DNA from: Patescibacteria group bacterium
GTDB lineage: Bacteria; Patescibacteriota; Gracilibacteria; Peribacterales; Peribacteraceae
Reading direction: 5' to 3'
Assembly (NCBI GenBank): GCA_043819035.1
Contig: JBDRFD010000029.1
Location: forward strand, 1-43,738
DNA length: 43,738 nucleotides
Shown: positions 1 to 18,750 of the stretch, piece after piece
How the letters are laid out: each line of letters opens with the position of its first letter
Position numbering within the stretch: the stretch's first letter is position 1
The notes under the pieces: model-generated
Databases searched by the model: none
What the model was told of the DNA's origin: nothing
Seen by the model: only the letters and a program-made list of their open reading frames with translations
Program-made: the position numbers and the translations under genes

Positions 1-641
1 TGCGTTTCCCAGCTGCGGGTTTGAACGCGTCCGGAAACGAATAGGCGCTGTCCTTTGTGGACAGTTTTGCTGATTTCCTCGGCAAGCTCGCCCCAAATAA
101 CAACATTGTGAAATTCGGCGCGCTCTTTGGTTTCACCGGAAGACTTATCCTTCCAGCGCTCATTGGTAGCAACGCCAATCGATAGAACTTGCTTGCCACT
201 TGTAGTTGTGCGAAGTTCCGGATCACGTGTGATGTGCCCGATTATATCTGCACGATTAACAGCGCTTAAAATCGCAGAAGCGCCCTGTGGCGCAGGAATC
301 TGTCCGTCTTTTGGATCAAGAAGAATCATATCGAGTGCAACAATTTTTGTTTTGCTGCGTTTCTCGCCGCTCTTCTCATCTTCCCAGCTGTCCGTTTGCA
401 GACGGCCGGCAAGTGAAAGTTGTGAACCGGGACGAACGTATTGCCCGGCAATGTCTGCCATAGGACCCCACAAGGTAACCGTGTGGAATCCTTTTCCTGT
501 AAGTGTTTCGTCGCTATCGGATTTGAACTGATAGGGAACGACGATATTGAGGTCCGTAACACTCGATCCACCGGGTGTTTGGCGAACTTCAACTGGTTGT
601 GTCTGATAGCCGATGATGTGTACGCGATTGAGAGAAAACAT
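1..641 (-). CDS. ssb: Single-stranded DNA-binding protein with two tandem OB folds; the C-terminal end lies beyond the window edge
   Basis: Manual minus-strand translation from ATG (641..639) is open to position 3. It reads MFSLNRVHIIGYQTQPVEVRQTPGGSSVTDLNIVV...GFHTVTLWGPMADIAGQYVRPGSQLSLAGRLQTDSWEDEKSGEKRSKTKIVA (OB1). It continues NRADIIGHITRDPELRTTTSGKQVLSIGVATNERWKDKSSGETKERAEFHNVVIWGELAEEISKTVHKGQRLFVSGRVQTRSWET (OB2). It is absent from the ORF track because no stop falls inside the window. Confidence 0.85.
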   Translation of the reverse strand, partial: MFSLNRVHIIGYQTQPVEVRQTPGGSSVTDLNIVVPYQFKSDSDETLTGKGFHTVTLWGPMADIAGQYVRPGSQLSLAGRLQTDSWEDEKSGEKRSKTKIVALDMILLDPKDGQIPAPQGASAILSAVNRADIIGHITRDPELRTTTSGKQVLSIGVATNERWKDKSSGETKERAEFHNVVIWGELAEEISKTVHKGQRLFVSGRVQTRSWET

Positions 642-838
642 GTCTCTGAAGGGGTATGGAATTAGAGGAGGTCACTGTCTTGCGCGCGTATGTGACTGTA
701 CCTTTGTACACCCCCAATGTTTTTCTAGGCAACTACTTTATATTGCATGATTTATGAATTGGTGTTCTGGTTTTATTTTATTGCTCTCTTCTAACCCCCC
801 AGAGGATACCCCATCGGTTGGGTAGTAGATGAATCTGT

Positions 839-922
839 GGGCTAAAGCCCACTTGGTTTGGTAAGCGTTAACCCCGCGCTTAAGCGCGGGGTTAACGCTT
901 CGCCTGCGATGGGCTTTAGCCC
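839..922. repeat. Nested palindrome, family C: outer arms GGGCTAAAGCCC / GGGCTTTAGCCC, inner perfect 38-bp palindrome at 863..900
   Basis: AAGCGTTAACCCCGCGCTT|AAGCGCGGGGTTAACGCTT reads identically on both strands. The outer arms at 839..850 and 911..922 are reverse complements. A related copy lies at 29334..29469. Confidence 0.85.
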
Positions 923-1055
923 CATCTGGCTGCAAAGCTTAGTAAGCAGTCATACCTGGATGTGAAGTGAAGTAAGTGTAAGTGTAAACATTTATTTGCT
1001 CCCCAACCCATACCCCCATAAACCCCTTCCTCCACGGTTTACCTCCATCCCCCAA

Positions 1056-1151
1056 CCCCTTCCTCCACAGGAGGAAGGGGAGCTTCGCTATTGGAGTATT
1101 GAGATTTGCTCTCATCTTTAACAGAGTTCCCCTCCTCCCGTGGAGGAGGGG
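1056..1151. repeat. Twin-hairpin element, family B
   Basis: Hairpin 1 is CCCCTTCCTCC-ACA-GGAGGAAGGGG (1056..1080). It is followed by AGCT, a spacer containing AACAGAGTT, and hairpin 2 CCCCTCCTCC-CGT-GGAGGAGGGG (1129..1151). The same architecture recurs at 12120..12213. Confidence 0.8.
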
Positions 1152-1291
1152 CTAGGGGTGGAGGCAATTGCAGTAGGTCAGGGGTGGAGGAAATACAAAA
1201 GAAAATCCTTACTTACTTTTCATCAAAATTTCTGTTCACAGAAGAGTATCCTGTGGCATATCAACATCAATTCACGCTACTATAGATACCA

Positions 1292-4200
1292 ATGCGCGAC
1301 TGGTCTTCCGAAAAACCACCCTTCATGGGGAGGGCATTGGGCATAATGGGGATCGCCATAGTGGCCTCACTGCTTTTTGCAGAAACCGTCTCTGCCCTCA
1401 CAATCAATCTTTTTCCGGAAAGTTTTAAAACAATTGAAAAGGTATTGGGCATAGGAGACTCCTTTGGAGATGGAACAATCCCCAAAGATCTGGAAGAAGC
1501 GCAATGCGGCGGATTTGATTACGAAGTTACAGTTGCAGATAAGATTCCAAAGGTAAAAGGACTCCCGGGGAGAGACGGCGATTACTTCGGCAATATTACT
1601 TCCGGTATGGCGGTTCGCAATGATGATGGATTCATAGCTCCCGGAGATGTGGATGTTTGTGGTTACAGAACCGCCTGCCGCCCCGATGATCCTGAATTTA
1701 GAATGGACGATGAAAGCGATGATGATACCGGCGGTGGCTCCCCCGGTGATTCTCCTGGTGATTCTCCCGGTGATACCACTGACGATGCAGATGGTGACCG
1801 TTATTTCCCACCCTTCTTCGACACTTTCCCATGTCAGCGTCCGCTCGGCGATGCCACTCCGGAAAAACCCCCTGTTCCAACCGGACGTAACGGCGAGGAA
1901 TTCCCTTTCACCTGCGGTGGAGCCGAAATGCCTGCAGACGGACATGTGTGCAAAGCGGAATATGATTCCAACACAGCACTCAACGGTGGCCTATGCGGAT
2001 GGCTTAACAACCGGTGGCTCTATGGATACTATCAAAAAACGGTCCCCGTTGATTATGAGTGCAATGATAACCGAGACCCGGACGGTGATGGATCACAACT
2101 TATTGGAAAAACCCTCTGCATGGTCACACTTTATTCTGGGAGTACACAATGCCGCTTTGTTACAAAAGAGGATGCTGCGCTGGGCTTCAATGAGAGGGTG
2201 AGAAAAAGAGACGAGCTGAACAACTCACAACCTGATGATCCCGGATTGAACAACAGCCAATATAAATTAGACTGGGAAGCCGAACGGCAGTGCTGCACTT
2301 ACCAGAACACCAATGGTAGAATTTACGGGCCTGATGGGGCATACGACACATCCGGTGACGATTCTTCGACAATGGGCCTCATCAGAAACTGCATACCGTG
2401 CGAAGGGAGCGATTGCAGATATATACCGGGGGAATCTCCAAAGCCGCGATGGCAATACTATCCTCCGTGGGCCATTGAGGTTGATAGGAGAGGGCCGTGT
2501 TTCTACTGTGTAAATATAGAAGATTCTACGGAAGAAGTATCTTGCGATGCCGCCAATGCCAGCGAGCCAATTTACCCCTGCGAGAATTTGGTCAGTTACG
2601 AATCAGAAAGCGGACTGACTTATTCGGCAAGAGAGCGCGGACAAAAGAGATACCGCTCATACTTCCGCCACTACACAGGCTCCTACTCGCGCGCAAAAGT
2701 CCCTTTTACAGACTATGAAGGAAAAAAGCATCTTAACGAAGAACCCAAGAAGTACGTTACGGATGACAGTTCAAAATCCAAAATCCCCGTCTCCTGCTAC
2801 CGGATGTACAAGGAGGCGGACTACAGGACGCAGGTTGCGAAGCCCAATCAAAAAGCATGTGTGATTGCCGCGTACTACGGCGAGCCCGATCGCAACTTCT
2901 GGGAAATGGGCCGACGAGCCACTGTGAAGAGAGGCCCGAAACCGCTCAAAATACGAGGTACACAGGAGGGCAAGGGTGAGTACAACTGGGAGTTCCTGGA
3001 CATCCCGGCTCTTATCCGCGATACAACTTTTGATGAAGAAAAAGATCTTTGGTATTCGGGTATCGGCAATGCTTTTTCTCTGACGAATGGAAAAGTGATG
3101 GAAGAGAGATACAACAATGACCTCACAATGGTGCTGCTGCAGCCTTCGGATTCCGCGCATCTGGAAGCCGGCATTCAGCTCTATTACACCGAAGAAGATG
3201 AAGAGAACGAAGAGAAGCAAAAAGTGGCGCTCTCGTCCGGCGCGCTGATGCGGGCGTTTGATGATACCGTGCATGCGGAATATGTTTATGTCCCGGGTAT
3301 GGAATGGTATCCGGACCAAAGAACAATTGCAGAATGGTGGCAGCGGCAGGAAACGATGGCGAATCTGCTCTTTAAGCCTCCTGCCATTCATCTTTTACTC
3401 CCACCTGCCTGGTCTGTAGGCCTCGACCCGCTTGATCCCCTCTTCACCCCGGAGATTATTGAAAGTCAGAACCTTTCCAAAGACCCGCGCATGCAAGTGC
3501 TGGACGTGCAACTGGAAGCAAATGAAGATTTGATTGATGTGGTGAAAGCATTTTTGCAGAAGACGCTCACGCCGCAGTTGGAAGAAGAACTCATCCCTAT
3601 CCTTGTCCCGCTCGGATCACCCACGGAATTCCGTGCGCTGGCGGAAAAGTGGAATGCTTGGGCCATCGCGCAGAAGAAGCGCGGTGGGTCCGGAGCGGAT
3701 GAAGCTATCGAACTGGCTGCAAAGCTGGAACAGTACGCACGACATATCGAAGAGGTGCGCAAACTGCGCGGCGAGCTCGTGTGGTTCCATACAAAACTTC
3801 TGGAACACCAAACGGTAATTACCGAGACAATCGGCGCATGGCTGAATGAAGATGTTACCGCTAAGTATGACGAGTTTCGCGACCTTTACGCGCAGCTTGA
3901 GCCGCTCAGGGCAACCTGGCAACAAACGCAATCAACCTACAGAAAAATGCACGACCAATCTTCCATGCCCTGGTGCCACAATGAGCGGTTCACCGTGCCT
4001 ATTTATTCTCTGCTGGATGAATGGATGACAAGTCGCACCGAGGGCAGTGTTGACCTTACGGGTGGAAAGTGGAGAAAGGCGCAAAATTCTGTGGGAGATC
4101 TTGCATCCCTTGTCGTCCCGCGCATGATCGACGGCGTCTTTGACTTTACGGCGCTGCGAGCCGCATCCGGATCACTTGAGGTTCCGGTGCTTGATCCCAT

Positions 4201-5011
4201 TCAGGTTCGCCTCGCTATGGAAGTGATGGAGCCCCCGACAATTTACGAGGAAGGCGTAAAAGTGCCCGTCCTTCCGGATCTTCCTCCCATCCCTTCAGTC
4301 AGAAAACTCATTGGAAGCTCTACGACTCCCGGCAGTAATATTTATCCCAACATCAGCGTGGGAATACCTCCTCCTTCAATTGAATTTGAAATTTGGAGTG
4401 AGAGCGAAGTTAGCGCATTCCATGACATCCTCAATTCCATTAGCACGGTAATAACGGGAATGCAGGAGGAATACGAATTGTTCTGGAACAGCCAGAATAT
4501 GTTCAGTTACGATAATCCGCCCAAGGCGCTCACAGAACTCGATTGCTACGGCAGACACTCGGATACCTGTGTGCATACCGAATGGGATCTTCTGGAACGA
4601 CTGATGCGTTTTGGAACAAGGCCTGCGGTGCTGCTTTTGGAAGACTTCCTCTCCATCGGAAGATTCCGGGAAAATCCCGCTGATGTGGGGTACGGCATTG
4701 AATCGTGCCCCGACCGGGATTGGGCATGCCAGCTTTTGCATGGATCCGAAACACATTCCTATGAAGGATGGGATGTGAACTGGAAGGAAGGTGAGATGCC
4801 TGATCTTGGAAAATCTCTCTGCTTGGGGGCAAAGGGGACACTCGCCGATCAGCTGCGTTTCTGCATGTTCCAGGAAACACTCGTCAATATCGGTGGCGAG
4901 AATGCCTACCCTTACGCAGCCGAGCGTGAAAATATTATTCCCTCTTTCCATGTACCGGATGACACGTCCATTCTTCATGAAGTTGAACCTTCAGAGGAAG
5001 AGGAGCCTTAA
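1292..5011 (+). CDS. Very large (about 1239 aa) Cys-rich protein with an N-terminal hydrophobic signal/anchor; gene 1 of a five-gene operon; no recognised family
   Basis: A 3.7-kb ORF is far too long to be open by chance. The N-terminus reads MGRALGIMGIAIVASLLFAETVSA (alternative start 1325). It contains an acidic SPGDSPGDSPGD repeat, a DNRDPDGDG motif (Ca-binding-like) and many Cys pairs (CIPCEGSDC, CFYC). Confidence 0.8.
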   Translation: MRDWSSEKPPFMGRALGIMGIAIVASLLFAETVSALTINLFPESFKTIEKVLGIGDSFGDGTIPKDLEEAQCGGFDYEVTVADKIPKVKGLPGRDGDYFGNITSGMAVRNDDGFIAPGDVDVCGYRTACRPDDPEFRMDDESDDDTGGGSPGDSPGDSPGDTTDDADGDRYFPPFFDTFPCQRPLGDATPEKPPVPTGRNGEEFPFTCGGAEMPADGHVCKAEYDSNTALNGGLCGWLNNRWLYGYYQKTVPVDYECNDNRDPDGDGSQLIGKTLCMVTLYSGSTQCRFVTKEDAALGFNERVRKRDELNNSQPDDPGLNNSQYKLDWEAERQCCTYQNTNGRIYGPDGAYDTSGDDSSTMGLIRNCIPCEGSDCRYIPGESPKPRWQYYPPWAIEVDRRGPCFYCVNIEDSTEEVSCDAANASEPIYPCENLVSYESESGLTYSARERGQKRYRSYFRHYTGSYSRAKVPFTDYEGKKHLNEEPKKYVTDDSSKSKIPVSCYRMYKEADYRTQVAKPNQKACVIAAYYGEPDRNFWEMGRRATVKRGPKPLKIRGTQEGKGEYNWEFLDIPALIRDTTFDEEKDLWYSGIGNAFSLTNGKVMEERYNNDLTMVLLQPSDSAHLEAGIQLYYTEEDEENEEKQKVALSSGALMRAFDDTVHAEYVYVPGMEWYPDQRTIAEWWQRQETMANLLFKPPAIHLLLPPAWSVGLDPLDPLFTPEIIESQNLSKDPRMQVLDVQLEANEDLIDVVKAFLQKTLTPQLEEELIPILVPLGSPTEFRALAEKWNAWAIAQKKRGGSGADEAIELAAKLEQYARHIEEVRKLRGELVWFHTKLLEHQTVITETIGAWLNEDVTAKYDEFRDLYAQLEPLRATWQQTQSTYRKMHDQSSMPWCHNERFTVPIYSLLDEWMTSRTEGSVDLTGGKWRKAQNSVGDLASLVVPRMIDGVFDFTALRAASGSLEVPVLDPIQVRLAMEVMEPPTIYEEGVKVPVLPDLPPIPSVRKLIGSSTTPGSNIYPNISVGIPPPSIEFEIWSESEVSAFHDILNSISTVITGMQEEYELFWNSQNMFSYDNPPKALTELDCYGRHSDTCVHTEWDLLERLMRFGTRPAVLLLEDFLSIGRFRENPADVGYGIESCPDRDWACQLLHGSETHSYEGWDVNWKEGEMPDLGKSLCLGAKGTLADQLRFCMFQETLVNIGGENAYPYAAERENIIPSFHVPDDTSILHEVEPSEEEEP

Positions 5012-5018
5012 TCTACCC

Positions 5019-5972
5019 ATGCATTCCAAACTTATATCTTTCGGCATACTTATCACCCTCTTGCTCCTTCCCGCAGGCGGAAGGTCAGCGGATGATTCTC
5101 CTCTCCCATCAGCCGATCTTTGCCGCGCGGCAATCGATCAGGCTCTCGCCAAAGAGCAGCGTATTTATCGCACTGTTCTCTTCGGACGAAAAGAGGCAAA
5201 AGATGCCCCCGTAGGAGAAGTGCGTTTCGACAAACAGGGAAGGGCGTTTTACAAAAGAGACAAGTACATGTGGGTTCATGCAAGTAACGATGGGAATGTA
5301 TTCTATATCAATGCGATGATGGACAATGAGGCCGAGCTCGATAGCGTCCCTGTGGATCAGGGCGGAGCCGAATTGAGTAAAGATACATTGCCTCGCCGCG
5401 GCATTCTGGACACCAAACGCACAATGACTTCGGAGCTGATCCCCTATCTCGCACAGGCGTTCCGTGCATTTACCTGCAGAGTGGATATGGTGTGCGATCG
5501 TATCGAGAAATCGATGAATCAAGAGGGGAATTCTGAATCAGTAGAGATTCCTATTCGTGTAAATGGATGCATCCGTGTGGACAGTGAGGAATGGAATTCG
5601 ATTCCGGTGTGCCACTTTACAGGAGAGGGGGGCGCCGCCTATAAAGACATGGCGGATGTCACTCAGTATTGCCAGAAAGTGGGTGACGGACTCGTGCAGA
5701 GGGAAAATGAAATTCTCAAAATGTTGGTGGAGTACGACGCGGCGTACCGGTCACTCCTCCAATTCGCAGGCGTCTTCGATGAGTTTCTGCAGGAATTCAG
5801 GTGGACCATCACCGGGAGCATCCGCAAGGCGGCATCAATCATAGGATCACTCGGACGCATTCCGTGCTTTATCTCAAGCTGTGATGAACATCCCCCTCCA
5901 ACCACCGAACTCGATTATTTCATCGGGCAGCCGAGTCCAATCTATGTCCCGGACTATAGCCCGGGCGATTGA
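5019..5972 (+). CDS. Secreted/anchored hypothetical protein (317 aa), operon gene 2
   Basis: ATG at 5019 lies 7 nt after the gene 1 stop. The N-terminus MHSKLISFGILITLLLLPAGGRSADD is signal-peptide-like. The ORF-track start at 4791 overlaps gene 1 and is probably spurious. Confidence 0.7.
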   Translation: MHSKLISFGILITLLLLPAGGRSADDSPLPSADLCRAAIDQALAKEQRIYRTVLFGRKEAKDAPVGEVRFDKQGRAFYKRDKYMWVHASNDGNVFYINAMMDNEAELDSVPVDQGGAELSKDTLPRRGILDTKRTMTSELIPYLAQAFRAFTCRVDMVCDRIEKSMNQEGNSESVEIPIRVNGCIRVDSEEWNSIPVCHFTGEGGAAYKDMADVTQYCQKVGDGLVQRENEILKMLVEYDAAYRSLLQFAGVFDEFLQEFRWTITGSIRKAASIIGSLGRIPCFISSCDEHPPPTTELDYFIGQPSPIYVPDYSPGD

Positions 5973-5983
5973 TACGAAATCGA

Positions 5984-6949
5984 ATGGTAAAAAGATCTTC
6001 CGATACCCGGCCCCAAAAGAACCTCGACTCAAAGAGGGAGAATGGCACTATACCCATGTTTGTCCTCGCGCTTCTCCTGATTTTTATAGGAGCTCAAACA
6101 GCCCCGGCTGCATACGGAAACATTCCCAAGCGTTTTCCCGTACTCGCAGCATGCACGCGTTACGAATATAACATCTTTAAGGGTACCGACTTTAATAAAT
6201 ACAAATTTCCGGAAGTCACAACCGTGAGCGACGTCTCGCGTTGGACCAAGCAATATCATGAGACAGTCAGCGAAGTGGTGGATGAAGTCTTCAATGGCCC
6301 TCCGGGGCCTCCCATTTGCACCGCACCTTCGTATGAAGGACTCCTTCCTCTTTCCGCAAGCCCGAAGCTGGGCGAACTTGCATCCTCGCTTCCATCCTGG
6401 AATTCACTCACGTGGCAAGTGCCGCCTGCCGGCACGGATCCCGAAGATTTCGATGCGGATCCTGATCTTATGAACACAAATGCGGGGAAATTAAGCCAGC
6501 TGGATGTTGGAACCGTACTGCTCGAATACCTGCGCATGTACGAATGCGCGCTCGTGGAACGCAGCCTCTTCCTGATCAAAGACACCTATGACCAAGAGAA
6601 GGACCGCGATAAGAGAATGGAGAACCTCAAAACAGAAGTCTCGGGTGATGTCTTGGAATCGCTCCTGATATTTCTGAAGGGGAGACCTCTCAACTGGCCT
6701 ATGTACTTGAATTTTTTTGTTGGAGATCGCCAGATCATCTTGAGCGAACTGACACAAGCGCGGCGTTCGCTTAATCGAACTCTCGCATTCCTTGCCGGTT
6801 TCAATCGTATGAGACCGATAGACATAGAGCTTAAGTGTCTTCAGCAGGCATCGCTTGATGTTCGAAACGGCTTGGCGCTCGCTGCCGACGCAAGCTCCTG
6901 CCTGCCGCGCATTTGGAACATCAAAGATGTTCTGCGCGACTACAAGTAA
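5984..6949 (+). CDS. Membrane-anchored or secreted hypothetical protein, operon gene 3
   Basis: ATG at 5984 lies 11 nt after the gene 2 stop. The track start at 5969 is a TTG. The hydrophobic segment is MFVLALLLIFIGAQTAPAAYG, so 6056 is an alternative start. Confidence 0.65.
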   Translation: MVKRSSDTRPQKNLDSKRENGTIPMFVLALLLIFIGAQTAPAAYGNIPKRFPVLAACTRYEYNIFKGTDFNKYKFPEVTTVSDVSRWTKQYHETVSEVVDEVFNGPPGPPICTAPSYEGLLPLSASPKLGELASSLPSWNSLTWQVPPAGTDPEDFDADPDLMNTNAGKLSQLDVGTVLLEYLRMYECALVERSLFLIKDTYDQEKDRDKRMENLKTEVSGDVLESLLIFLKGRPLNWPMYLNFFVGDRQIILSELTQARRSLNRTLAFLAGFNRMRPIDIELKCLQQASLDVRNGLALAADASSCLPRIWNIKDVLRDYK

Positions 6950-6954
6950 TCCCC

Positions 6955-9549
6955 ATGAAGAAGTTCTTCCATCTCTCTCTCGGCATACTCGCTCTCTCTG
7001 CCCTCTTCATACCGGATGGAGCCTCCGCGGGCATCTACGGGTGGGCGCGCGCGCTAACCAATTTTGAGTATAAAGGAATTGACGGGCCGATCTCCGGTTT
7101 CATCACGCACAAGCAGGTGTTCAACCGGTCGGATACGGACCCGTTCTCCGGTGCGGATGTGAATGATGCCATGGAATACAGCACCGACAACATCTGCAGG
7201 AGGAGGCGGGATATTAAAGGGGCATTAAGTTGCGATGCAATCGCGCAACCTGTGCGTGATATCGCGCGACGTGAAGAGCTGGTGCGCACATTGGAGCGCG
7301 ATCTTCAGGCAATCGCACTGGGGTATGAGCTCCCCATCACCGATCACTCCATCGAGCCAATGTCGTTGGCGCCGCGAATGCCAAGCATTATCCGAATCTG
7401 GCAATCCAGCTCAGACTGGATCTACTCGCCTGTAACCGAACGACGTGTTCGCTCTCAGTCATTCCCGACCAAAGAAGAAGACCCCGTACTATATGACTTG
7501 GTTATGGGCAAAAAAGATGGGGATGGCAATATCATAAAACCCGGCATCAAGCAGCTCGCCGGTGAAGGCATGGCGCGGCGCTATAGGTGGGGACTCTTCA
7601 CGGTCAAAAGGGAGGACCCGCAGTTGGAAAATTGCAGCAAATGGTACGAATGCAAAGATTGGCTGAGTTGCTGGGAAAAACAGGACAACGATACGGAGCT
7701 TAAGCCGCTTTTTGTTCGCGGGTGCAGTACGATCCCGGAGGCAAGCCTGGAAGACATGCTTCAAAAAGTTCTAGACCATTTGCATGCGACGATCGTTTTC
7801 GACCCGCCGCTCCAAAATGGAGAAATTGTGATTTTTCCGCCATGGGAATTAAATGAAGATACCTTCATGTGGGTGCACATGAACTATGCGAGGAAAAGGG
7901 ACGATATCGGTCTGGGGGACAAGCTCCCTCTGGAACCGATGATGCTTAAGCTTGATTGCGACTGGGAGAATGATGAGTATGGAACTCCCGCATGTGTCCC
8001 GGGGATTGTCGGAGACACCTGTTTAAGCGGAGGCGACCCTGACACGTGTAAAAAGGGAATAATTCTGGGCGGCATGTACTTGGATCCGCCACGGGAACCT
8101 CCGATGACAGAAAAGGTATGCACCATGCCATTCTCTTCACACGGATACCTCTGCAAAGAAATTGATCAGATGCGTTGCCCTCCGCAGGAGCCGGAGGAAG
8201 GCGAAAAGGCTCCTTCGGATGAAGGAATTGTTCTCACTCGTTGCGATCCCGATAATCTCACCGGTGTCACATGGCAGATGGAGTCCGGACCCGATGCCTG
8301 CCGCATTGGAGGATGGCGATTCAATCCCGTCGGGTACAAAAATGATGAAGGTATCATTGAACCGGTTAAGGACACTCCTAAGAGGGATAAAGAAATTAAT
8401 CGCCCCTTCAACTGCAGCAACTGCGCTGTGGATCTGTTCTGCAGCGGACAGGGTGGCACATGTGTAGGAGGAGCATATACACTCTCGAAAAATGATAATG
8501 ACGTATTTGGGATTTGTCTCCCGGAAACTACCCCCATCAATTCGTACTTCCTTTTGCATGAGTTGGTACATGCACAACAATTCTGCAATCTACCACCGGA
8601 AGCAATGAGGGAAATGACAAGTACTCCGGAGCGGTGCTGCGCGGTGGAACAACCGGCATACTTCACCCAATGTGCAGCTGTGGCAGAAGATGGCCACTTT
8701 GAAGACACAGATCTCACTGTAGAAGTATGCACAAGTGCTTTTGCCAATCTCTCATGCCTTAAATCAATGTCACCGGGAAGTGGAGGGCTCCCTTGTACGG
8801 GAAATTATTACACTATCGATGAATTGATCGACATCACTAAAAGGGTTAATAAGGCAGCCGATAAGAATTTAGCTGGTCTTCCAGAAACGTGCGAAGACGT
8901 CATAAATTATATGGATCCGCGCGCAAAAATGTTTATAAACTCGCTCCCGCTTGTATGCTCAGCGGAATGCCAATCCGAATATCAGAACACAATCGGAAAT
9001 AACGCCTGTTATATCGCACAGTGCACCGAAGAATCACTGGAAACGCAGAGGTTGTACCCTGGGCGTATGAACTTTGTAACGCAGGATGAAGCTTTCCCGT
9101 GGGAATCGGATATCAAACCCGATCCTCTGATCGGTTCTGTGATGCCGATTCCCCCATTACCCCTCACACGATTCCCCTCCTATCGCCCCGAACTCTTTGT
9201 GAAGGATCTGGATCTGGCGCTCTGCCAATTGGCCGGACTTCCTATCAGTCAGCCTCCGCATCGCTGCGCCTTCCATGCGCTTCGGCAGTTGGCGTTACTC
9301 CCTTCAAATCCGTCTTTGCTTGGTTATGGCTTTGTAACCCAGACATCAGAGGGGCAGGAAGAAGCGTGGGGTTTGCAATCTTTGGCACCCAGCATCGGCG
9401 TGCGATTGGGAACAGACCTCTACATTCAGTATTTCCGGCGTGCGGGAAAAGCATTCTGGGAGCTGGTGCGCGGCGCGAACGAACTCATCGGCGGAATCGC
9501 CACACTGGAATTCCCCGCGGACTCCTGCCCCCGATACAACCCTCAGTAG
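6955..9549 (+). CDS. Large secreted Cys-rich protein (864 aa) with a single HExxH motif, operon gene 4
   Basis: ATG at 6955 lies 5 nt after the gene 3 stop. The signal peptide is MKKFFHLSLGILALSALFIPDGASA. HELVH is encoded at 8557..8571. Cys clusters include CSNCAVDLFCSGQGGTC. Confidence 0.8.
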   Translation: MKKFFHLSLGILALSALFIPDGASAGIYGWARALTNFEYKGIDGPISGFITHKQVFNRSDTDPFSGADVNDAMEYSTDNICRRRRDIKGALSCDAIAQPVRDIARREELVRTLERDLQAIALGYELPITDHSIEPMSLAPRMPSIIRIWQSSSDWIYSPVTERRVRSQSFPTKEEDPVLYDLVMGKKDGDGNIIKPGIKQLAGEGMARRYRWGLFTVKREDPQLENCSKWYECKDWLSCWEKQDNDTELKPLFVRGCSTIPEASLEDMLQKVLDHLHATIVFDPPLQNGEIVIFPPWELNEDTFMWVHMNYARKRDDIGLGDKLPLEPMMLKLDCDWENDEYGTPACVPGIVGDTCLSGGDPDTCKKGIILGGMYLDPPREPPMTEKVCTMPFSSHGYLCKEIDQMRCPPQEPEEGEKAPSDEGIVLTRCDPDNLTGVTWQMESGPDACRIGGWRFNPVGYKNDEGIIEPVKDTPKRDKEINRPFNCSNCAVDLFCSGQGGTCVGGAYTLSKNDNDVFGICLPETTPINSYFLLHELVHAQQFCNLPPEAMREMTSTPERCCAVEQPAYFTQCAAVAEDGHFEDTDLTVEVCTSAFANLSCLKSMSPGSGGLPCTGNYYTIDELIDITKRVNKAADKNLAGLPETCEDVINYMDPRAKMFINSLPLVCSAECQSEYQNTIGNNACYIAQCTEESLETQRLYPGRMNFVTQDEAFPWESDIKPDPLIGSVMPIPPLPLTRFPSYRPELFVKDLDLALCQLAGLPISQPPHRCAFHALRQLALLPSNPSLLGYGFVTQTSEGQEEAWGLQSLAPSIGVRLGTDLYIQYFRRAGKAFWELVRGANELIGGIATLEFPADSCPRYNPQ

Positions 9550-9550
9550 C

Positions 9551-11239
9551 ATGATGGCATCTCTTCCTTCGCAGGCAGCCCGAACAATGCGATGCGTCAT
9601 ACGGATGACACTTGTTATCGTACTGTTCGCACTGTCAATTTCCGCTTTCGCTGATGATACTGCCGTTGATAGCTTATGTAAGGGCGGAGAAGATGAGGCT
9701 GTGGAGGCGATCCTGAATTCCGTAACTCCCGTTTCCGCACACTTTACACAGAAAGTGCTCGACCGGGCGGAAAAGGGAATCGAGGAGGCATTCAGCCATA
9801 CTCAGACTTTCAATGACAAAGATTTTATGTCATGGGCAGAGCATACATTCCAGGCCTTCTCCGCAATTATCGATACCAAGTTGCGCCTGATCTATCAGGA
9901 ACGAGACTTAAGAGAAAATACAAGCTGCCTGCATATCGATCTTCTGCTGATCGAGACGATGATGGAAAAAGTTCGTTGCAAGATTCAGTTCGCGTTCGAA
10001 AAGAAGCAGCATGTCACCATCCTCCAACTCAAAGACATCATCATCTTCCTGAATGAATCGTATAACGATCTTTCGGAGGGTGCGCGGCACAACGCGTATG
10101 TGGCTTCGGGTTACCCGCAGAGCCGATCATTTGATGCCGATCCGGCCTGGTGCTGCCGTGACGGAAAGATGTGTGAATTATTCTACGAGCCGGGAGAGTG
10201 CGGCGGGAACAAAGAGGAAACCGTGTACTCATGCATGATTGAGACTGATTGCGGCTCCATGAAGCTTTGCCCTTTTCATTCGGACTATCTTCCCCCGTCT
10301 TCTTTCGGAAGCGGAGGGACTGTATTTGGGTACGGGTGTGATCTTGGAATCATCAGCCGCTACAGTTCCATCAGCGCTCCGGACTCTAAAATCGGAGATG
10401 CAATAAACGCGGAGGTAAAAGCCATGCGGGAATTAATCAATGAACGTGACAAATTTATTACGGACTCCATGCACCTAAAAGAAGACGCAACTAATCTTGA
10501 TCTCTGGATGGGAAGGGCTCCTTCTCCGAGACTTGAGTATTTTGGTATGACAGTCGACTCCCAACGTGAGCACTACACTGTCTTCGGATGCAGCGAAAGC
10601 CCATATGCATGGTCAGCTCCAATCTCGGACGAAGAAGAGGAAGAAGGAACCGACAGAACTCCGGACAGCCTCTGGCCGCCCATCTGGCCCGCCGGCGCAA
10701 TCCGGTGGCCGACATATGGAGCGTTCTCTTTTAATCGAAATGAGCTGCAGCTAATGAAGGAATATAGAAAGCTTCGCGAGGAATGGGGGAAGAGGAGGCC
10801 GCTCGCTTATGAGCTTCCTGATCAGTTTGGCTTCTACTTTTTCCTCCAGCTCTACTTCAGAGGGCAATTCAAGCTTTGGGACATATATCAAGAGCGCCTC
10901 ACAAGCACTATCGTCGCGCACGCAACCGATGTTCCCCGCCGCATAATCGCCGAGCTTACTCCACTGCGAGAAGCAGTAGGTGAATTCTCAACGTATGCAT
11001 CTGTTCTGCCGGCTGCCGATAGCGGGGCAGAAGCAAAAGGAGGCATCCGAGGTTTTGCCCGCGGGCTAGCATATTTCCTAAGACGCTCATGTATCACACG
11101 CCCGTGCAACGAGCGTCTCGAGCGCATCCTCAGGGTCGTCCTGCAGGACAAATGTTTCCCGTACACCGGCGGTAACTACAGCGGAAAGGTGTGGGAAGAT
11201 TGCAAGAAGGCAGCTGAGCTCGATGAATTTGCTCCTTGA
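9551..11239 (+). CDS. Secreted/anchored Cys-rich hypothetical protein (562 aa), operon gene 5
   Basis: ATG at 9551 lies 1 nt after the gene 4 stop. The hydrophobic N-terminus is MRCVIRMTLVIVLFALSISAFADD. A Cys cluster reads CCRDGKMCELFYEPGECGG. Confidence 0.75.
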   Translation: MMASLPSQAARTMRCVIRMTLVIVLFALSISAFADDTAVDSLCKGGEDEAVEAILNSVTPVSAHFTQKVLDRAEKGIEEAFSHTQTFNDKDFMSWAEHTFQAFSAIIDTKLRLIYQERDLRENTSCLHIDLLLIETMMEKVRCKIQFAFEKKQHVTILQLKDIIIFLNESYNDLSEGARHNAYVASGYPQSRSFDADPAWCCRDGKMCELFYEPGECGGNKEETVYSCMIETDCGSMKLCPFHSDYLPPSSFGSGGTVFGYGCDLGIISRYSSISAPDSKIGDAINAEVKAMRELINERDKFITDSMHLKEDATNLDLWMGRAPSPRLEYFGMTVDSQREHYTVFGCSESPYAWSAPISDEEEEEGTDRTPDSLWPPIWPAGAIRWPTYGAFSFNRNELQLMKEYRKLREEWGKRRPLAYELPDQFGFYFFLQLYFRGQFKLWDIYQERLTSTIVAHATDVPRRIIAELTPLREAVGEFSTYASVLPAADSGAEAKGGIRGFARGLAYFLRRSCITRPCNERLERILRVVLQDKCFPYTGGNYSGKVWEDCKKAAELDEFAP

Positions 11240-11564: not shown

Positions 11565-12014
11565 ATGAACCTCAAACAGCGCAACTCCTTCACCCGACTC
11601 CGCACACTCCGCCGAGGTTTCACCCTCCTCGAACTAATGATCGTGCTAGGAATATTCGGTATCCTCGCCCTCATCGTTCTGGTTGCAATAAATCCAACCA
11701 AACAACTAAGCGAAGCACGCGGCGCGAACCGTCATGCGTCCGTGAGGGAAATAGAGAACGCTGTCATCCAGTACATCATTGATGGAAATGCGCTCGCAGG
11801 TATCCCCGCGGGAAAAATAAACTCACAGGATATCTGCAGAACAGGAATCTCGGGTGCGTGTTACGAACTCGATGTCCTTTCTCCGACGTATTTAGTCTCA
11901 CTTCCCATCGACCCGGACGAAACGGACCCGGATCTCACGGGTTATCGAATTTACATGCTTGGCAGCTTCATCAAGGTCTGCTCGCCGAGGGTGGACACCG
12001 ATTGTGGGACGTAA
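11565..12014 (+). CDS. Type IV pilin-like / pseudopilin protein with a prepilin N-terminal cleavage-methylation motif
   Basis: RRGFTLLELMIVLGIFGILALIVLVAINP matches the class III signal (G|FTLxE followed by a hydrophobic helix). The C-terminal region contains a Cys pair. Confidence 0.85.
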   Translation: MNLKQRNSFTRLRTLRRGFTLLELMIVLGIFGILALIVLVAINPTKQLSEARGANRHASVREIENAVIQYIIDGNALAGIPAGKINSQDICRTGISGACYELDVLSPTYLVSLPIDPDETDPDLTGYRIYMLGSFIKVCSPRVDTDCGT

Positions 12015-12045
12015 AGAAAGGGTAAAGTGTAAGGGGTAAGGGGAA

Positions 12046-12430
12046 AGGGGAAAGGGAAAATGTCTGAACCGTAGATTACGAACAATGTCTGAATCACGGA
12101 TATTACCTCTCCCCTCGATCCCCTCTCCACAGGAGAGGGGAAGCTCTGTTATTGCAGAAAACAGAGTTTTTACTTGTTAAACGAAGCTCCCCTTCCTCCC
12201 GTGGAGGAAGGGGCCGGGGGATGGAGGTAAAATCCGTGATTCAGACAACGTAAGAAGTTATGACAGAGATAAGTCTGAAACTAGGATTTGAAAGATTATC
12301 GACCTTCGCCTCTTGGCTACTAGGGACAAACTATGCTACGACCGATAAGAAAGGATTAAAGGATTAGCATGATTAATCTAGTTAATCCTTTAATCATGTG
12401 AATCATGGTCCCAGACAATTTGCTATCAGT
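12046..12430. repeat. Non-coding composite of nested palindromes, bounded by a ~70-bp direct duplication of the pilin gene 3' end
   Basis: It contains a family A inverted repeat (12086..12247), family B twin hairpins (12120..12213) and ATTAAAGGATTA...TAATCCTTTAAT (about 12354..12392). It is flanked by 11974..12045 and 12431..12500. Confidence 0.7.
12086..12247. repeat. Family A inverted-repeat element (TGTCTGAATCACGGAT arms)
   Basis: TGTCTGAATCACGGAT (12086..12101) and ATCCGTGATTCAGACA (12232..12247) are a perfect 16-bp inverted repeat, extendable to about 25 bp. Relatives lie at 20704..20820 and 35953..36054. Confidence 0.85.
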
Positions 12431-12599
12431 TCGCCGAGGGTGGACACCGATTGCGGAACGTAAAAAAGAGTAAAGTGTAAGGGGTAAGGGAAAAAGGGTA
12501 AGGGGAAAACGAATTTAATCAAGTTTTCCACTTTCCCTTTTCACTTTTCAGTTTCTTTCCGTTTCCCTTTACCCTTTTCCCCTTTAGAATCAACTCTCT

Positions 12600-15500
12600 A
12601 TGCAGCCCTCCGATTTCGTCCACTTACATTGCCACTCGACATATTCCTTGCTCGAAGCCCTACCAAGCCCTGCAGAGATTGTCGAACGTGCAAAAGAGCT
12701 CAAACAAACGGCCGTGGGAATCGCGGATAAGGGCTACACCTACGGGCTCGTGGAATTCTATAAGGTCGCGAAGGAGCAGGACATCAAGCCGATTTTGGGA
12801 ATGACAACATATGTTGCGGCACGATCGCGCCACGACCGCGAACGCGGGGTGGACTCGAAGCGTTACCCGCTTGTTCTCCTCGCAGAGACACAGGAAGGTT
12901 ACTCCAACCTATTAAAGCTTGCGACATTCGCCGCACTCGAAGGCATGTACTACAAGCCGCGTGTCGACAAAGAGCTTCTCAAAAAATATGGGAAAGGATT
13001 GATCGCACTAAGCGGACCAATCAGCGGTGCAATCCCAAGGGCGGCACTCGCAGAAGATGGAGAAGCACTCACGAAGCTGGCTGAGGAGTATTGGTCATTC
13101 TTCGGCAAAGAGAATCTCTATTTTGAATTGATGGATTTGCCGGAAGTTGCAGGGCAAGCGGAGGTGAATCAACAACTCATTAAATGGGGAAATGAACTCG
13201 ATGTGCCGCTGGTCGCAACATGCAACAGCCACTACTGCCGTCCGGGGGATAGTGAAGCGCACGATGTGCTGCTGTGTATTCAGAAGAACGCGAATGTAAC
13301 TGACCCGAGCCGCTTTTCCATGCGAGACACGGACTTCTCCATGCGCCCGTTTGAAGAGTTGGAGAAAGCTTTCGAGCATGCACCACAGGCTCTGGAAAAT
13401 ACACGTGTGATTGCAGACCGTTGTGACGTCACATTGGAATTTGGAAAGTACCATATCCCCCGCTTCCCTCTCCCAAAAGGGACAACAGAGGAACAAGAGC
13501 TGAAACGGCTCGCCGAAGAAGGCCTGAAGAAACGCTACAGAAAACCCACCAAAGAGCATCGAGAACGTTTGGATTATGAATTGAAAATCATCGAACAAGT
13601 TGGCTTTGCCGGGTACTTCCTGATCGTCTCGGACTTTGTAAACGAAGCAAAGAGCAGAGGGATTACCGTAGGACCGGGGCGAGGATCTGCTGCAGGTTCG
13701 ATCATTGCTTATTGTTTAGGAATAACCGGACTTGATCCGCTCGAACACGGACTTTTCTTCGAACGTTTCCTGAATCCTGAGCGTATCTCGATGCCCGACT
13801 TTGATATCGACTTCGCCGACACGCGCAGAGATGAAGTACTCGAGTACGTTCGCGGGAAATATGGAGAAGATCATGTTGTGCAAATCTGCACCTTTGGAAC
13901 ATTGGCAGCCAGAGCCGCTGTAAAAGACGTCGGTCGTGCGTACGGCGTTCCATTCTTGGAGATGAATACGCTTGTAAAATTCATTCCGGAGCGCCCGGGC
14001 ACCACACTCGCGGAGGCACTGGAAACGAGCGAACTCAAGGCCGCCTACGATAGCAACAAGACGTATAAGCAGATCATTGATACGGCGCTCAAACTTGAAG
14101 GAAAAGCTCGACACGTTTCAGTCCATGCATGCGGCGTGATCATTACCGAAGAGCCGGCAGTGCATAACACCGCCCTTCAGCGCGCGCCAAAAGATGACCT
14201 GACGATAATCACACAAACCGCTGCCAAACCATTGGAAGCGTTGGGCTTGCTGAAAATGGACTTCCTGGGGCTGATGAACCTCACAGTAATCCAGACAACA
14301 CTTAAAATTATCGAACGAATCGATAAGAAAAAACTTGATATTTCTTCCATCCCCCTCGACGACAAAAAAACCTACGCGCTTTTGCAGCGCGGCGATACAA
14401 CCGGCGTCTTCCAGTTGGAATCCGGAGGAATGCGCCGGTACTTAAAGCAACTCAAACCAACGGAGTTCGAGGATATCACCGCGATGATCTCACTCTTCCG
14501 CCCGGGCCCCATGGAATGGATACCCAGCTTCATCAAACGCAAGCACGGCAAAGAGGAAGTGAAGTACATACACAAAGATCTGGAGCCGATCCTCAAGCCC
14601 ACACATGGTATCGGAGTTTATCAGGAGCAAATTCTGCAGATGGCACAGACCTTTGCGGGGTTTAGCCTGGGTGAGGCGGACCTCCTGCGTCGTGCCATCG
14701 GGAAAAAGATAAAAAAGGAGCTCGACGCACAGCGTGAAAAGTTTATTGAGGGTTCCAAAAAACAGGGATATGACGAAAATCTTGCTATCAAGATCTTTGA
14801 CGACGTAGTAATGCCCTTTGCGGGATACGGGTTTAATAAATCACATGCCGCGGGTTATGCGCGCATCTCTTACGAGACCGCTTACCTAAAAGCAAACTAC
14901 CCTGCGGAGTTTATGGCGGCGCTCCTGAGTAGTGACGCGCAGAGAACTGATCGTGTGATGATCGAAATCGAGGAATGCCGCACGATGGGAATGGAGGTGC
15001 TGCCTCCTGACATTAATGAGTCGCTCAGGCACTTTACTGTGGTCCCAGGAACTGACAATCTGACCAAATCAGAAATCAGAAATCAGAAATCACAAAACAT
15101 TCGCTTTGGGCTGACCGCTATTAAAGGTATTGGGGACAGTACCGTTCAACAGGTGATCGCCATCCGTGATGAAGGCGGCAAGTTTGAAAGTATTGAGGAT
15201 TTCGCCAAACGCATTCCCGCAAAGATTCTAAACAAGAAGCTCTTGGAATCGCTCGCGAAGTCAGGTGCGCTCGACTGTTTTGGAGAGCGTCATGTGCTTG
15301 TAGAACACTACGACAGTATCGTGAACTTTGCGAAAGCTTTTGGTGATGTGAGCAGCTCTCAGACCAATCTCTTCGCAGGGATGGACGAAGCGATGACCGC
15401 GCCTACACTTGAATTCCCTGAAACAAAGGAGGCCTCGCTGCAACAGAAACTACAATGGGAAAAGGAAACGCTTGGTCTGTATGTTTCCAGCCACCCGCTC

Positions 15501-18303: not shown

Positions 18304-18750
18304 TCAAACAAACAACTTCCCCAGCTCCTCCTTAAATTCTTCCACGTCCTTAAACTCCCGGTGCACAGACGCAAAACGGATGTACGCAACTTTGTCGATC
18401 TTCTTAAGCGCGCGCATCACATCCATACCGATAGTGGAACTGGCAACTTCTTTTTTGTTCGCTCCCCACTTCTCTTCGAGCTTCGAAAGAAGATTATCGA
18501 TCTTCTCTTTGGAAATCGGTCGCTTGGTGCACGCCACCCAAATCCCACGCTCAAGTTTAGACCTACTGTAAGGTTCCCGCGTTCCATCGCGCTTCACAAC
18601 GATCAATGAGCTCAACTCTTGCCGCTCGTAAGTTGTGAACCGGTGCGAGCACTTGGTGCACTCGCGGCGCCTCCTCACAGCCCTCCCATCCTCCGCGATG
18701 CGGGTATCAACGACCGAGGTATCCGAGGATCGGCAATGGGGGCAATGCAT
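18304..18750 (-). CDS. nrdR: Transcriptional repressor NrdR (zinc ribbon plus ATP-cone)
   Basis: MHCPHCRSSDTSVVDTR...RRRECTKCSHRFTTYE is the canonical NrdR zinc ribbon. The ATP-cone follows. Confidence 0.95.
   Translation of the reverse strand: MHCPHCRSSDTSVVDTRIAEDGRAVRRRRECTKCSHRFTTYERQELSSLIVVKRDGTREPYSRSKLERGIWVACTKRPISKEKIDNLLSKLEEKWGANKKEVASSTIGMDVMRALKKIDKVAYIRFASVHREFKDVEEFKEELGKLFV

What the first reader, a model, noticed from the sequence alone, without database searches (positions are those of the whole stretch)
1292..11239. Tightly coupled five-gene operon of large Cys-rich exported proteins with no recognisable family, next to a type IV pilin gene
Five consecutive plus-strand genes cover nearly 10 kb. 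After start correction they encode about 1239, 317, 321, 864 and 562 aa. The gaps between them are only 7, 11, 5 and 1 nt. Each product begins with a single hydrophobic signal or anchor segment and is rich in Cys pairs, which predicts extracellular disulfide-bonded proteins. I recognise no domain except one HExxH motif, an acidic SPGD repeat and a DxDxDG-like motif. A prepilin-type pilin gene follows. The stoichiometric-looking coupling suggests one multi-subunit surface structure (adhesin, host-contact or secretion-associated apparatus). This is my best candidate in the window for an undescribed system.
Basis: partly seen in the sequence, partly recalled or inferred. Interest (0 to 1): 0.8.

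Follow-up and report, generated by a model that had tools for sequence, protein, structure and literature searches.

The report
Conserved five-gene secreted-protein operon, Peregrinibacteria
Five back-to-back genes for exported, cysteine-rich proteins that match nothing known are kept in exactly this order in at least 70 species of the uncultured Peregrinibacteria, so they probably build one still-undescribed cell-surface assembly, and the neighbouring pilin gene is not part of it.

Summary
Five + strand genes (1239, 317, 321, 864 and 562 aa; gaps 7, 11, 5 and 1 nt) each start with a cleavable-looking signal peptide and have no other membrane segment.

None matches Pfam, NCBIfam, PADLOC, PHROGs or PDB sequences. 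A confident AlphaFold model of gene 4 (pLDDT 81.7) has no Foldseek neighbour in PDB or BFVD.

The block is not an orphan. The order g1-g2-g3-g4-g5 is kept, with no inserted gene, in every one of 62 species-level Peregrinibacteria loci that hold both g1 and g5, down to about 21-26% identity. It nearly always lies between ssb and dnaE.

The pilin gene lies between g5 and dnaE in only 11 of 62 genome loci and 9 of 32 metagenome loci, so the pilus link is not supported.

The HExxH stretch of g4 is a separate module. Some lineages lack it, one carries it in g1, and a Planctomycete carries it after an Rhs core. About a quarter of the family has lost the metal ligands.

Two species fuse g5 to a VirB2-like two-helix membrane domain.

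Best reading, at moderate confidence: one disulfide-stabilised extracellular complex at the cell surface. Its function is unknown.

The parts
3..641 (-). ssb (single-stranded DNA-binding protein), the divergently transcribed upstream neighbour. It is context and not part of the system.
   Evidence: Translation reads as a tandem-OB SSB. An SSB gene on the minus strand lies upstream of g1 in 38 of 62 related loci.
642..1291 (.). 650-nt non-coding region that must hold the promoter of the block. It contains a two-hairpin element of about 130 nt at 1040-1170.
   Evidence: No ORF. Dense inverted repeats. The same element recurs at 12110-12240. No consensus sigma-70 promoter was found here.
1292..5011 (+). 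g1, 1239 aa. Signal peptide aa 1-35 (predicted cleavage VSA|L). Conserved N-terminal domain (AQCGGWD motif). Variable Cys-rich acidic region with SPGD repeats at aa 150-161 (nt 1739-1774). Conserved core from about aa 450 to 1160 with a coiled-coil-like stretch at about aa 770-915.
   Evidence: Orthologues in 52 loci. No Pfam, NCBIfam or PDB match. Only coiled-coil noise when 40 members were scanned.
5019..5972 (+). g2, 317 aa, signal peptide plus a mature protein with 8 conserved cysteines.
   Evidence: No family or PDB match, including a scan of 63 members.
5984..6949 (+). g3, 321 aa, signal peptide plus a mature protein with exactly five invariant cysteines (C57, C112, C188, C285, C306).
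   Evidence: No family or PDB match, including a scan of 62 members.
6955..9549 (+). g4, 864 aa, signal peptide plus three regions: N-terminal region aa 26 to about 450, HExxH module aa about 455-670, and C-terminal region aa about 675-864 with the invariant NTIGNNxCYxxQCxEE motif and a 64-residue helix.
   Evidence: Alignments A1 and A8. AlphaFold model with mean pLDDT 81.7 and pTM 0.76. Foldseek found no match at E<=0.001 in PDB or BFVD. 279 sequence clusters in an exhaustive HMM search.
8317..8964 (+). Zincin-like HExxH module inside g4 (aa 455-670). HELVH is at nt 8557-8571. The candidate third ligand E565 lies on the next long helix.
   Evidence: H535, E536, H539 and E565 are invariant in A1 and intact in about 70 of 95 family representatives. 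Predicted layout is strands, then the HExxH helix 529-543, then helix 558-578. The module is absent from g4 in L070, L072, L073 and L074, present in g1 of L074 and L071, and follows an Rhs core in L075.
9551..11239 (+). g5, 562 aa, signal peptide (predicted cleavage AFA|DD), helical N-terminal part, Cys-rich middle, and the conserved C-terminal motif AYFLRRSCIxRPCN...CFPY.
   Evidence: No family or PDB match for the window protein. Orthologues in L047 and L054 carry a C-terminal PF18895 domain.
11565..12014 (+). Type IV (pseudo)pilin gene, 149 aa. It is a neighbour in this genome but not a conserved partner of the block.
   Evidence: N_methyl E 3.5e-8. TIGR02532 E 2.1e-8. Present between g5 and dnaE in 11 of 62 genome loci and 9 of 32 metagenome loci.
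12600..16406 (+). dnaE (DNA polymerase III alpha subunit), the conserved downstream neighbour. It is context.
   Evidence: Pfam domains of the orthologues. Directly downstream of g5 in 54 of 62 genome loci, often only 13-150 nt away, and in nearly all 32 metagenome loci.

Best explanation
The five genes encode five Sec-exported, disulfide-stabilised subunits of one extracellular assembly that sits at the cell surface of Peregrinibacteria.

Shown:
- All five have signal peptides and no other membrane segment.
- They are always encoded together, in the same order, with nothing in between.
- They evolve at the same fast rate.
- They have no detectable relative outside this lineage.
- One subunit has a fold with no solved neighbour.

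Inferred:
- They are made in fixed proportions from one transcript. Stop and start codons abut or overlap.
- They are exported unfolded, oxidised outside the membrane, and joined into a hetero-oligomer. g1 (about 1200 aa) and g4 (about 860 aa) would be the large scaffold subunits. g2, g3 and g5 would be smaller partners.
- At least one inter-chain disulfide is likely, because g3 has five invariant cysteines.
- g4 (in some lineages g1) carries a small gluzincin-like metallopeptidase module of the kind used as an Rhs toxin tip. In this window its HExxH and downstream Glu are intact, so it is probably an active protease acting on a surface substrate, either the organism's own or a partner cell's. 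A quarter of the family has lost the ligands, so catalysis is not the core function.
- The most likely role is a constitutive envelope or partner-contact structure of these presumed symbionts.
- The pilin gene is not part of it.
For: - Export: one N-terminal hydrophobic segment with AxA-type sites in all five proteins and in their orthologues, and no other segment.
- Order: g1 to g5 is kept in every Peregrinibacteria locus with enough flank (62 loci with both g1 and g5, identity down to 21-26%).
- Tightness: across 60-69 junctions of each kind, no locus has room for an inserted gene. The largest distance from a stop codon to the first aligned codon of the next gene is 370 nt. The flanks are looser, with the g5-dnaE gap reaching 3.5 kb.
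- Independent confirmation in 32 metagenome loci.
- Overlapping stop/start codons in annotated orthologues, and 1-11 nt gaps here.
- Rates: mean p-distance 0.62-0.67 for all five against 0.29 for DnaE. Between-family distance correlations are 0.89-0.95, against 0.75-0.84 with DnaE.
- Module transfer between g1 and g4.
- g3 has five invariant cysteines.
- g5 is fused through a Pro/Ser linker to a two-helix PF18895 membrane domain in L047 and L054. g3 has a 270-aa Ser/Gly tail in L021. Both fit a surface location.
- HExxH and E565 are invariant in close relatives and sit on two consecutive predicted helices after a beta-sheet.
- The only recurring weak fold hits are ImmA/IrrE-type zincins.
Against: - No interaction was computed or measured. 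AlphaFold was possible for g4 only.
- The surrounding housekeeping genes (ssb, dnaE, sua5, nrdR, aspS) are also largely syntenic in these genomes. Part of the order conservation may therefore be general synteny and not selection on a complex.
- The distance correlations partly reflect shared phylogeny.
- The cysteine parity argument depends on a conservation threshold for g1.
- The Foldseek zincin hits are not significant (E>=1, probability <=0.21).
- The membrane-anchor fusion occurs in only 2 of 68 g5 sequences.
- The signal peptides were judged by eye and hydropathy, not by a trained predictor.
- The genome scan used exact peptide patterns, so presence in all Peregrinibacteria is not shown.
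Confidence: 0.45

Rival explanations
1. The five are independent secreted proteins, for example enzymes or binding proteins acting on the envelope or on nutrients. They share an operon and a conserved position but do not form a complex.
For: The whole region ssb to aspS is syntenic across these genomes, so order conservation alone is weak evidence for a complex. No paralogy or shared domain links the five. One of them has a protease-like module.
Against: Not a single insertion, loss or rearrangement inside the block in 60-69 junctions, although the flanks do vary. Evolutionary rates are equal and tightly correlated. The HExxH module moves between g1 and g4. g3 has an odd number of invariant cysteines. 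Apart from the HExxH module, no enzyme-family signature is seen in any of the five or in up to 68 orthologues of each.
Confidence: 0.25
2. The five form a surface contact or adhesin set that works with the Patescibacteria type IV secretion-like system, which is reported to lack a recognisable adhesin. g5 would be the link to the VirB2-like pilin layer.
For: g5 of L047 and L054 ends in a PF18895 'T4SS_pilin' domain (E 5e-9 and 1e-8, above the Pfam cut-off). VirB2-like proteins are widespread in Patescibacteria and no PrgB-type adhesin was found there (bioRxiv 10.1101/2025.01.22.634366).
Against: The fusion is seen in only 2 of 68 g5 sequences, and in none of 32 metagenome loci. No stand-alone PF18895 gene and no virB4 lies near the block in any locus or in the 43.7-kb window. 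The domain may simply serve as a membrane anchor.
Confidence: 0.1
3. It is a type IV pilus accessory or tip set (minor-pilin/PilY1-like).
For: A prepilin-type pilin gene follows g5 in this window and in a minority of relatives.
Against: None of the five has a prepilin leader or any pilin, PilY1/PilC or GspK-type match. The pilin is absent from that position in 51 of 62 genome loci, where dnaE follows g5 within 13-150 nt. No pilus assembly genes are in the window.
Confidence: 0.06
4. It is a polymorphic-toxin or effector cassette, with g4 as a secreted metallopeptidase toxin and the others as helpers or immunity proteins.
For: The HExxH module of g4 is homologous to the segment that follows an Rhs-associated core (TIGR03696, E 3.5e-8) in a Planctomycete ORF.
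Against: No Rhs repeats, no delivery domain and no cytoplasmic immunity-like partner: all five are exported. Each contig returned by the scan carries one locus, at a fixed chromosomal position among housekeeping genes, in line with vertical inheritance. The module is internal, degenerate in about 25% of the family and deleted in several lineages, while the rest of the block stays.
Confidence: 0.05

Closest known systems
Minor-pilin/PilY1 tip complexes of type IV pili (fimU-pilVWXY1E-type operons) and T2SS pseudopilin sets
   Same: A multi-gene operon for an extracellular multi-protein structure, here next to a pilin gene. One large subunit of about 1200 aa plus smaller ones.
   Different: No prepilin leader and no pilin or PilY1 domain in any of the five. 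Pilin adjacency is not conserved.
C-terminal metallopeptidase toxin modules of Rhs/polymorphic toxins
   Same: The g4 module (HE[LM]xHAQQxC ... CCxxE) aligns with the segment after an Rhs-associated core in L075.
   Different: In the window the module is internal to a conserved scaffold protein, with no Rhs repeats. It has lost its ligands in about 25% of relatives and is dispensable in some lineages. No curated Pfam toxin family matches.
ImmA/IrrE-type minimal zincins (PprI/IrrE, CapP)
   Same: HExxH on a helix after a small beta-sheet, with a Glu on the following helix. These are the only recurring Foldseek hits (7t5t, 8sln, phage IrrE).
   Different: The hits are not significant (E 1-2.7, TM 0.23-0.41 over 120-170 columns). 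Those enzymes are cytoplasmic regulators without a cysteine scaffold.
VirB2-like 'T4SS_pilin' (PF18895) proteins of Patescibacteria
   Same: Two g5 orthologues end in this domain.
   Different: Absent from the window's g5 and from 66 of the 68 g5 sequences. No T4SS genes are nearby.
Large cysteine-rich extracellular proteins of Peribacteria (Anantharaman et al. 2016, PMC4736985)
   Same: Same lineage, exported, cysteine-rich, proposed to act in attachment.
   Different: Those are described as a 14-gene cluster with 7.2% Cys, average length 1655 aa, strain-variable, and with weak integrin or pappalysin-like annotations. The block here has 1.6-4.1% Cys, a fixed composition and conserved order. 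I found no description of this block in the papers searched.

Membership tests
Type IV pilus / T2SS accessory (pseudo)pilin set | Class III (prepilin) signal peptide, G|FxxxE, on the subunits | tested here: not met
   N_methyl and TIGR02532 match only the separate pilin gene 11565-12014 and none of g1-g5. The N-termini are classical signal peptides.
Type IV pilus / T2SS accessory (pseudo)pilin set | Conserved genomic linkage to pilin or pilus-assembly genes | tested here: not met
   A pilin lies between g5 and dnaE in 11 of 62 genome loci and 9 of 32 metagenome loci. No assembly ATPase or platform gene is in any locus.
Type IV pilus / T2SS accessory (pseudo)pilin set | PilY1/PilC-type or GspK-type domain in the large subunit | tested here: not met
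   No Pfam or NCBIfam hit for g1 or g4, nor for 40 g1 orthologues.
Zincin (gluzincin) metallopeptidase | HExxH motif on a helix | tested here: met
   HELVH 535-539 is invariant in 18 close relatives, lies in predicted helix 529-543 at pLDDT above 90, and is intact in about 70 of 95 representatives.
Zincin (gluzincin) metallopeptidase | Third zinc ligand (Glu) on a downstream helix | tested here: inconclusive
   E565 is invariant in A1 and present in 78 of 95 sequences in A8, on predicted helix 558-578.
Zincin (gluzincin) metallopeptidase | Significant sequence or fold match to a known peptidase family | tested here: not met
   Pfam and NCBIfam give nothing for the module. Foldseek gives only weak ImmA/IrrE-type hits, E>=1.
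Zincin (gluzincin) metallopeptidase | Zinc-dependent peptidase activity | not testable with these tools
   Needs recombinant protein and an E536A control.
Rhs / polymorphic toxin | Rhs/YD repeats and an Rhs-associated core ending in DPxGL before the toxin module | tested here: not met
   Absent from g1-g5. Present only in the Planctomycete ORF of L075 (TIGR03696 E 3.5e-8).
Rhs / polymorphic toxin | Adjacent cytoplasmic immunity gene; variable toxin tips between strains | tested here: not met
   All neighbours in the block are exported proteins. The block has a fixed composition at a fixed locus.
VirB2-like T4SS pilin (PF18895) | Match to PF18895 with two hydrophobic helices | tested here: not met
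   Not in the window's g5. Met only by the C-termini of the L047 and L054 g5.
Sec-exported soluble protein | N-terminal n-h-c signal peptide with an AxA-type site and no further membrane segment | tested here: met
   Hydropathy scan and inspection of the five proteins and their orthologues. SignalP and DeepTMHMM were not available.

The most novel reading that the evidence does not exclude
The five proteins build a previously unknown kind of extracellular machine that is the main partner-cell contact organelle of Peregrinibacteria. It would be a disulfide-locked five-subunit complex of novel folds. It would have captured an Rhs-type metallopeptidase toxin module to open or process the partner's surface. 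In some lineages it is tethered by a VirB2-like domain, which would make it the missing contact or adhesin component of the Patescibacteria T4SS-like system.
Probability: 0.15. Interest if true: 0.85.

Novelty: categorically new. Interest (0 to 1): 0.66.

Why it matters
Peregrinibacteria are a large, uncultured branch of the Candidate Phyla Radiation. They are presumed to live attached to, or dependent on, other cells, but no host or contact mechanism is known for them.

A five-protein exported set is kept in fixed order, as a single locus on every contig the scan returned, among core replication genes and across the lineage. It is therefore very likely central to their envelope or lifestyle.

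It offers concrete handles for follow-up:
- recombinant subunits as baits to find partner cells;
- antigens for imaging;
- a protease module with a testable active site.

It also adds at least one new fold (g4), and probably several, to the protein universe.

It shows an Rhs-type toxin module recruited into a conserved structural protein and then repeatedly inactivated or moved between subunits.

Tried and rejected
- **Single-sequence family scans.** Pfam, NCBIfam, PADLOC and PHROGs on all five gave nothing above noise.
- **Pfam scans of many orthologues.** 68 g5, 63 g2, 62 g3 and 40 g1 orthologues, plus 10 long g4 relatives. Only the PF18895 fusion in two g5 sequences and coiled-coil noise in g1 appeared.
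- **PDB sequence searches.** Single sequence and profiles for all five: no hit.
- **First AlphaFold model of g4.** With 18 sequences it was poor (pLDDT 55.7) and its Foldseek hits were meaningless. A 95-sequence alignment fixed the model but still found no neighbour.
- **Paralogy among the five.** BLAST and hhalign show only the signal peptides in common.
- **Profile search for more g1 homologues.** Returned the same 7 proteins, so g1, g2, g3 and g5 have no models.
- **Viral contigs.** No relative, so a phage origin is rejected.
- **Multihaem or Fe-S reading of the cysteines.** Rejected: there is no CxxCH motif and the proteins are Sec-exported.
- **Lipoprotein anchoring.** No consistent lipobox.
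- **Rfam on the region.** Only sub-threshold miRNA-like hairpin matches.
- **Resemblance of HELVHAQQ to the DUF4157 motif.** This is from memory only. Pfam did not report it even at E<=10, so it is not claimed.


Full report
**1. The observation**

The window has five consecutive + strand ORFs. After start correction they are g1 1292-5011 (1239 aa), g2 5019-5972 (317), g3 5984-6949 (321), g4 6955-9549 (864) and g5 9551-11239 (562). The gaps are 7, 11, 5 and 1 nt. The public gene call for g4 is the same 864-aa protein.

Each product has one N-terminal hydrophobic stretch followed by an AxA-like site, and no other hydrophobic segment. Examples are g1 ...ETVSA|L and g5 ...SAFA|DD. The orthologues show the same pattern: VHA|G, AKA|E, VYA|E, AAA|QC. 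So these look like cleavable Sec signal peptides and not membrane anchors. This is by hydropathy and inspection only.

All five proteins are acidic. Cysteine is 1.6-4.1%, against 1.18% in 11 other proteins of the window. The HELVH motif, the SPGD repeats and the DPDGDG motif are present. The next gene (11565-12014) is a prepilin-type pilin.

**2. No known family, and a fold without a neighbour**

- Pfam, NCBIfam, PADLOC and PHROGs give nothing for the five.
- Single-sequence and profile searches of PDB sequences give nothing.
- Pfam scans of 40-68 orthologues per family give nothing, with one exception described in section 6.
- BLAST and hhalign find no paralogy among the five beyond their signal peptides.
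- A first AlphaFold model of g4 from 18 sequences was poor, with pLDDT 55.7.
- With 95 family members the model reached mean pLDDT 81.7 and pTM 0.76. Foldseek still found no match at E<=0.001 in PDB (best E 0.13) or in BFVD.

At least g4 is therefore a confidently predicted fold with no solved neighbour.

**3. The block is conserved across Peregrinibacteria**

g4 has 17 homologues in the indexed search, all from Peregrinibacteria or Patescibacteria MAGs. An exhaustive HMM search finds 279 clusters at 50% identity.

A scan of one genome per GTDB species gave 71 loci. Nearly all are labelled Peregrinibacteria, Peribacteria or Peribacteraceae. The one labelled Kiritimatiellales (L005) has the same ssb-block-pilin-dnaE synteny, so it is probably mis-binned.

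HMMs of the five families found g1-g2-g3-g4-g5 in that order in every such locus with enough flank. That is 62 loci with both g1 and g5, at identities to the window down to 21-26%. In 60-69 junctions of each type, the distance from a stop codon to the first aligned codon of the next gene never exceeds 370 nt. No locus has an inserted gene. In annotated relatives the stop and start codons overlap. Thirty-two metagenome loci retrieved with a g5 motif show the same g4-g5-dnaE arrangement.

**4. Neighbours**

The upstream gene is ssb on the other strand. This holds in 38 of 62 loci. dnaE follows g5 directly in 54 of 62 loci, often after only 13-150 nt, and is followed by sua5, nrdR and aspS.

The pilin lies between g5 and dnaE in only 11 of 62 genome loci and 9 of 32 metagenome loci. 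None of the five has a prepilin leader.

The scan returned one locus per contig. The block lies at a fixed position among housekeeping genes. This argues for a vertically inherited, probably constitutive function. It also means that general synteny contributes to the order conservation. Even so, the block is tighter than its flanks.

**5. The HExxH module**

In close relatives H535, E536, H539, Q542, C544 and E565 are invariant. In the model, four short strands are followed by helix 529-543 (HELVH) and helix 558-578 (E565), all at pLDDT above 90. This is the gluzincin layout, as I know it from established descriptions of zincins.

The only recurring Foldseek hits, none of them significant, are ImmA/IrrE-type zincins: CapP 7t5t, PprI 8sln, and a phage IrrE and peptidase.

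The module (HMM positions about 430-640) is missing from g4 in L070, L072, L073 and L074. It sits in g1 of L074 (aa 75-278) and in both g1 and g4 of L071. In a Planctomycete contig (L075) the same module ('IRHEMVHAQQFCD') follows an Rhs-associated core domain (TIGR03696, E 3.5e-8), which is the toxin position of an Rhs protein.

Among 95 representatives, about 70 keep HExxH. The rest have replaced the ligands while keeping the cysteine scaffold.

So the module is a mobile, toxin-type peptidase domain recruited into the block. It is probably active in this window, but it is not the conserved core of the system. Its movement between g1 and g4 is the best sequence-level hint that these two proteins work together.

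**6. Other hints for a surface complex**

- The five families evolve at the same fast rate: mean p-distance 0.62-0.67, against 0.29 for DnaE. Their pairwise distance matrices correlate at 0.89-0.95, against 0.75-0.84 with DnaE.
- Conserved cysteine columns number 17, 8, 5, 24 and 8 for g1 to g5. The five cysteines of g3 are all invariant, so at least one cannot pair within the monomer.
- In L047 and L054, g5 continues through a Pro/Ser linker into a two-helix PF18895 'T4SS_pilin' domain (E 5e-9 and 1e-8, above the cut-off). This places g5 at the membrane surface in those species.
- No stand-alone copy of that domain lies near the block elsewhere.
- In L021, g3 has a 270-aa Ser/Gly-rich tail.
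- VirB2-like proteins are widespread in Patescibacteria, and no adhesin is known for their T4SS-like system (bioRxiv 10.1101/2025.01.22.634366). This is a lead, not a result.

**7. Interpretation**

The best-supported reading is one extracellular, disulfide-stabilised assembly of five Sec-exported subunits at the cell surface. It would carry an optional metallopeptidase module and serve a core envelope or partner-contact role (confidence about 0.45).

The rivals are:
- independent secreted proteins that merely share an operon (0.25);
- a contact set for the T4SS-like system (0.10);
- a type IV pilus accessory set (0.06);
- a toxin cassette (0.05).

No interaction has been computed or measured. 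That is the main gap.

**8. Comparison with the literature**

The 2016 description of Peribacteria genomes mentions large, very cysteine-rich extracellular proteins. These are a 14-gene cluster with 7.2% Cys, average length 1655 aa, and strain-variable (PMC4736985). The block here differs in composition, size and conservation. I found no paper that describes it.

**9. Verdict**

This is a real, strongly conserved, lineage-wide operon whose products lie outside every family and system I could test. I rate it categorically new in kind, with two caveats. Four of the five subunits were not tested at the fold level. The function is inferred, not shown. Interest 0.66.

Noticed in passing
window 1040-1170 and 12110-12240: A two-hairpin element of about 130 nt, containing the perfect palindrome CCCCTTCCTCC-NNN-GGAGGAAGGGG at 1056-1080 and 12189-12213. 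It occurs once upstream of g1 and once between the pilin gene and dnaE. No copies are expected by chance. It looks like a small repeated intergenic (MITE/REP-like) element that brackets the block plus the pilin gene.
   Followed up: partly
window 11981-12060 and 12430-12510: The last 30 nt or so of the pilin ORF, plus about 45 nt downstream, are repeated almost exactly just before dnaE. It looks as if about 450 nt, including the hairpin element, was inserted with a flanking duplication.
   Followed up: partly
L075 9485-10468 (Planctomycetaceae MAG): An ORF with an Rhs-associated core domain (TIGR03696, E 3.5e-8) followed by the same HExxH module as g4. No large Rhs gene lies upstream, so it may be an orphan toxin cassette.
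   Followed up: partly
L047 9230-11428 and L054 5652-7709: g5 orthologues fused through a Pro/Ser-rich linker to a C-terminal PF18895 'T4SS_pilin' domain with two hydrophobic helices.
   Followed up: yes
L021 1192-2853: A g3 orthologue of 553 aa with a Ser/Gly-rich low-complexity C-terminal tail of about 270 aa.
   Followed up: partly
L005 (JAIPIN010000018.1): This contig is labelled Kiritimatiellales but carries the full Peregrinibacteria arrangement ssb, five-gene block, pilin, dnaE, sua5, nrdR at 62-67% identity to the window. It is probably mis-binned.
   Followed up: partly
window 18304-18750 (-): nrdR is on the minus strand here, as in L005 and L006, but on the plus strand downstream of sua5 in most other loci. 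This is a small local inversion in this clade.
   Followed up: no
window 29684-31174 (+), 23117-25444 (-), 20895-21926 (+): Three low-complexity ORFs: a 496-aa His/Asp/Ser-rich protein with many 'HDP..S'-like repeats and an N-terminal hydrophobic segment, a 775-aa Lys/Glu/Ala-rich protein, and a 343-aa Lys/Glu-rich protein. None was analysed.
   Followed up: no
window 32502-33008 (-): A 168-aa ORF whose sequence (…HLVWVPKYRKK…HVHLF…) looks, from memory, like an IS200/IS605-type Y1 transposase. Not tested against any library.
   Followed up: no
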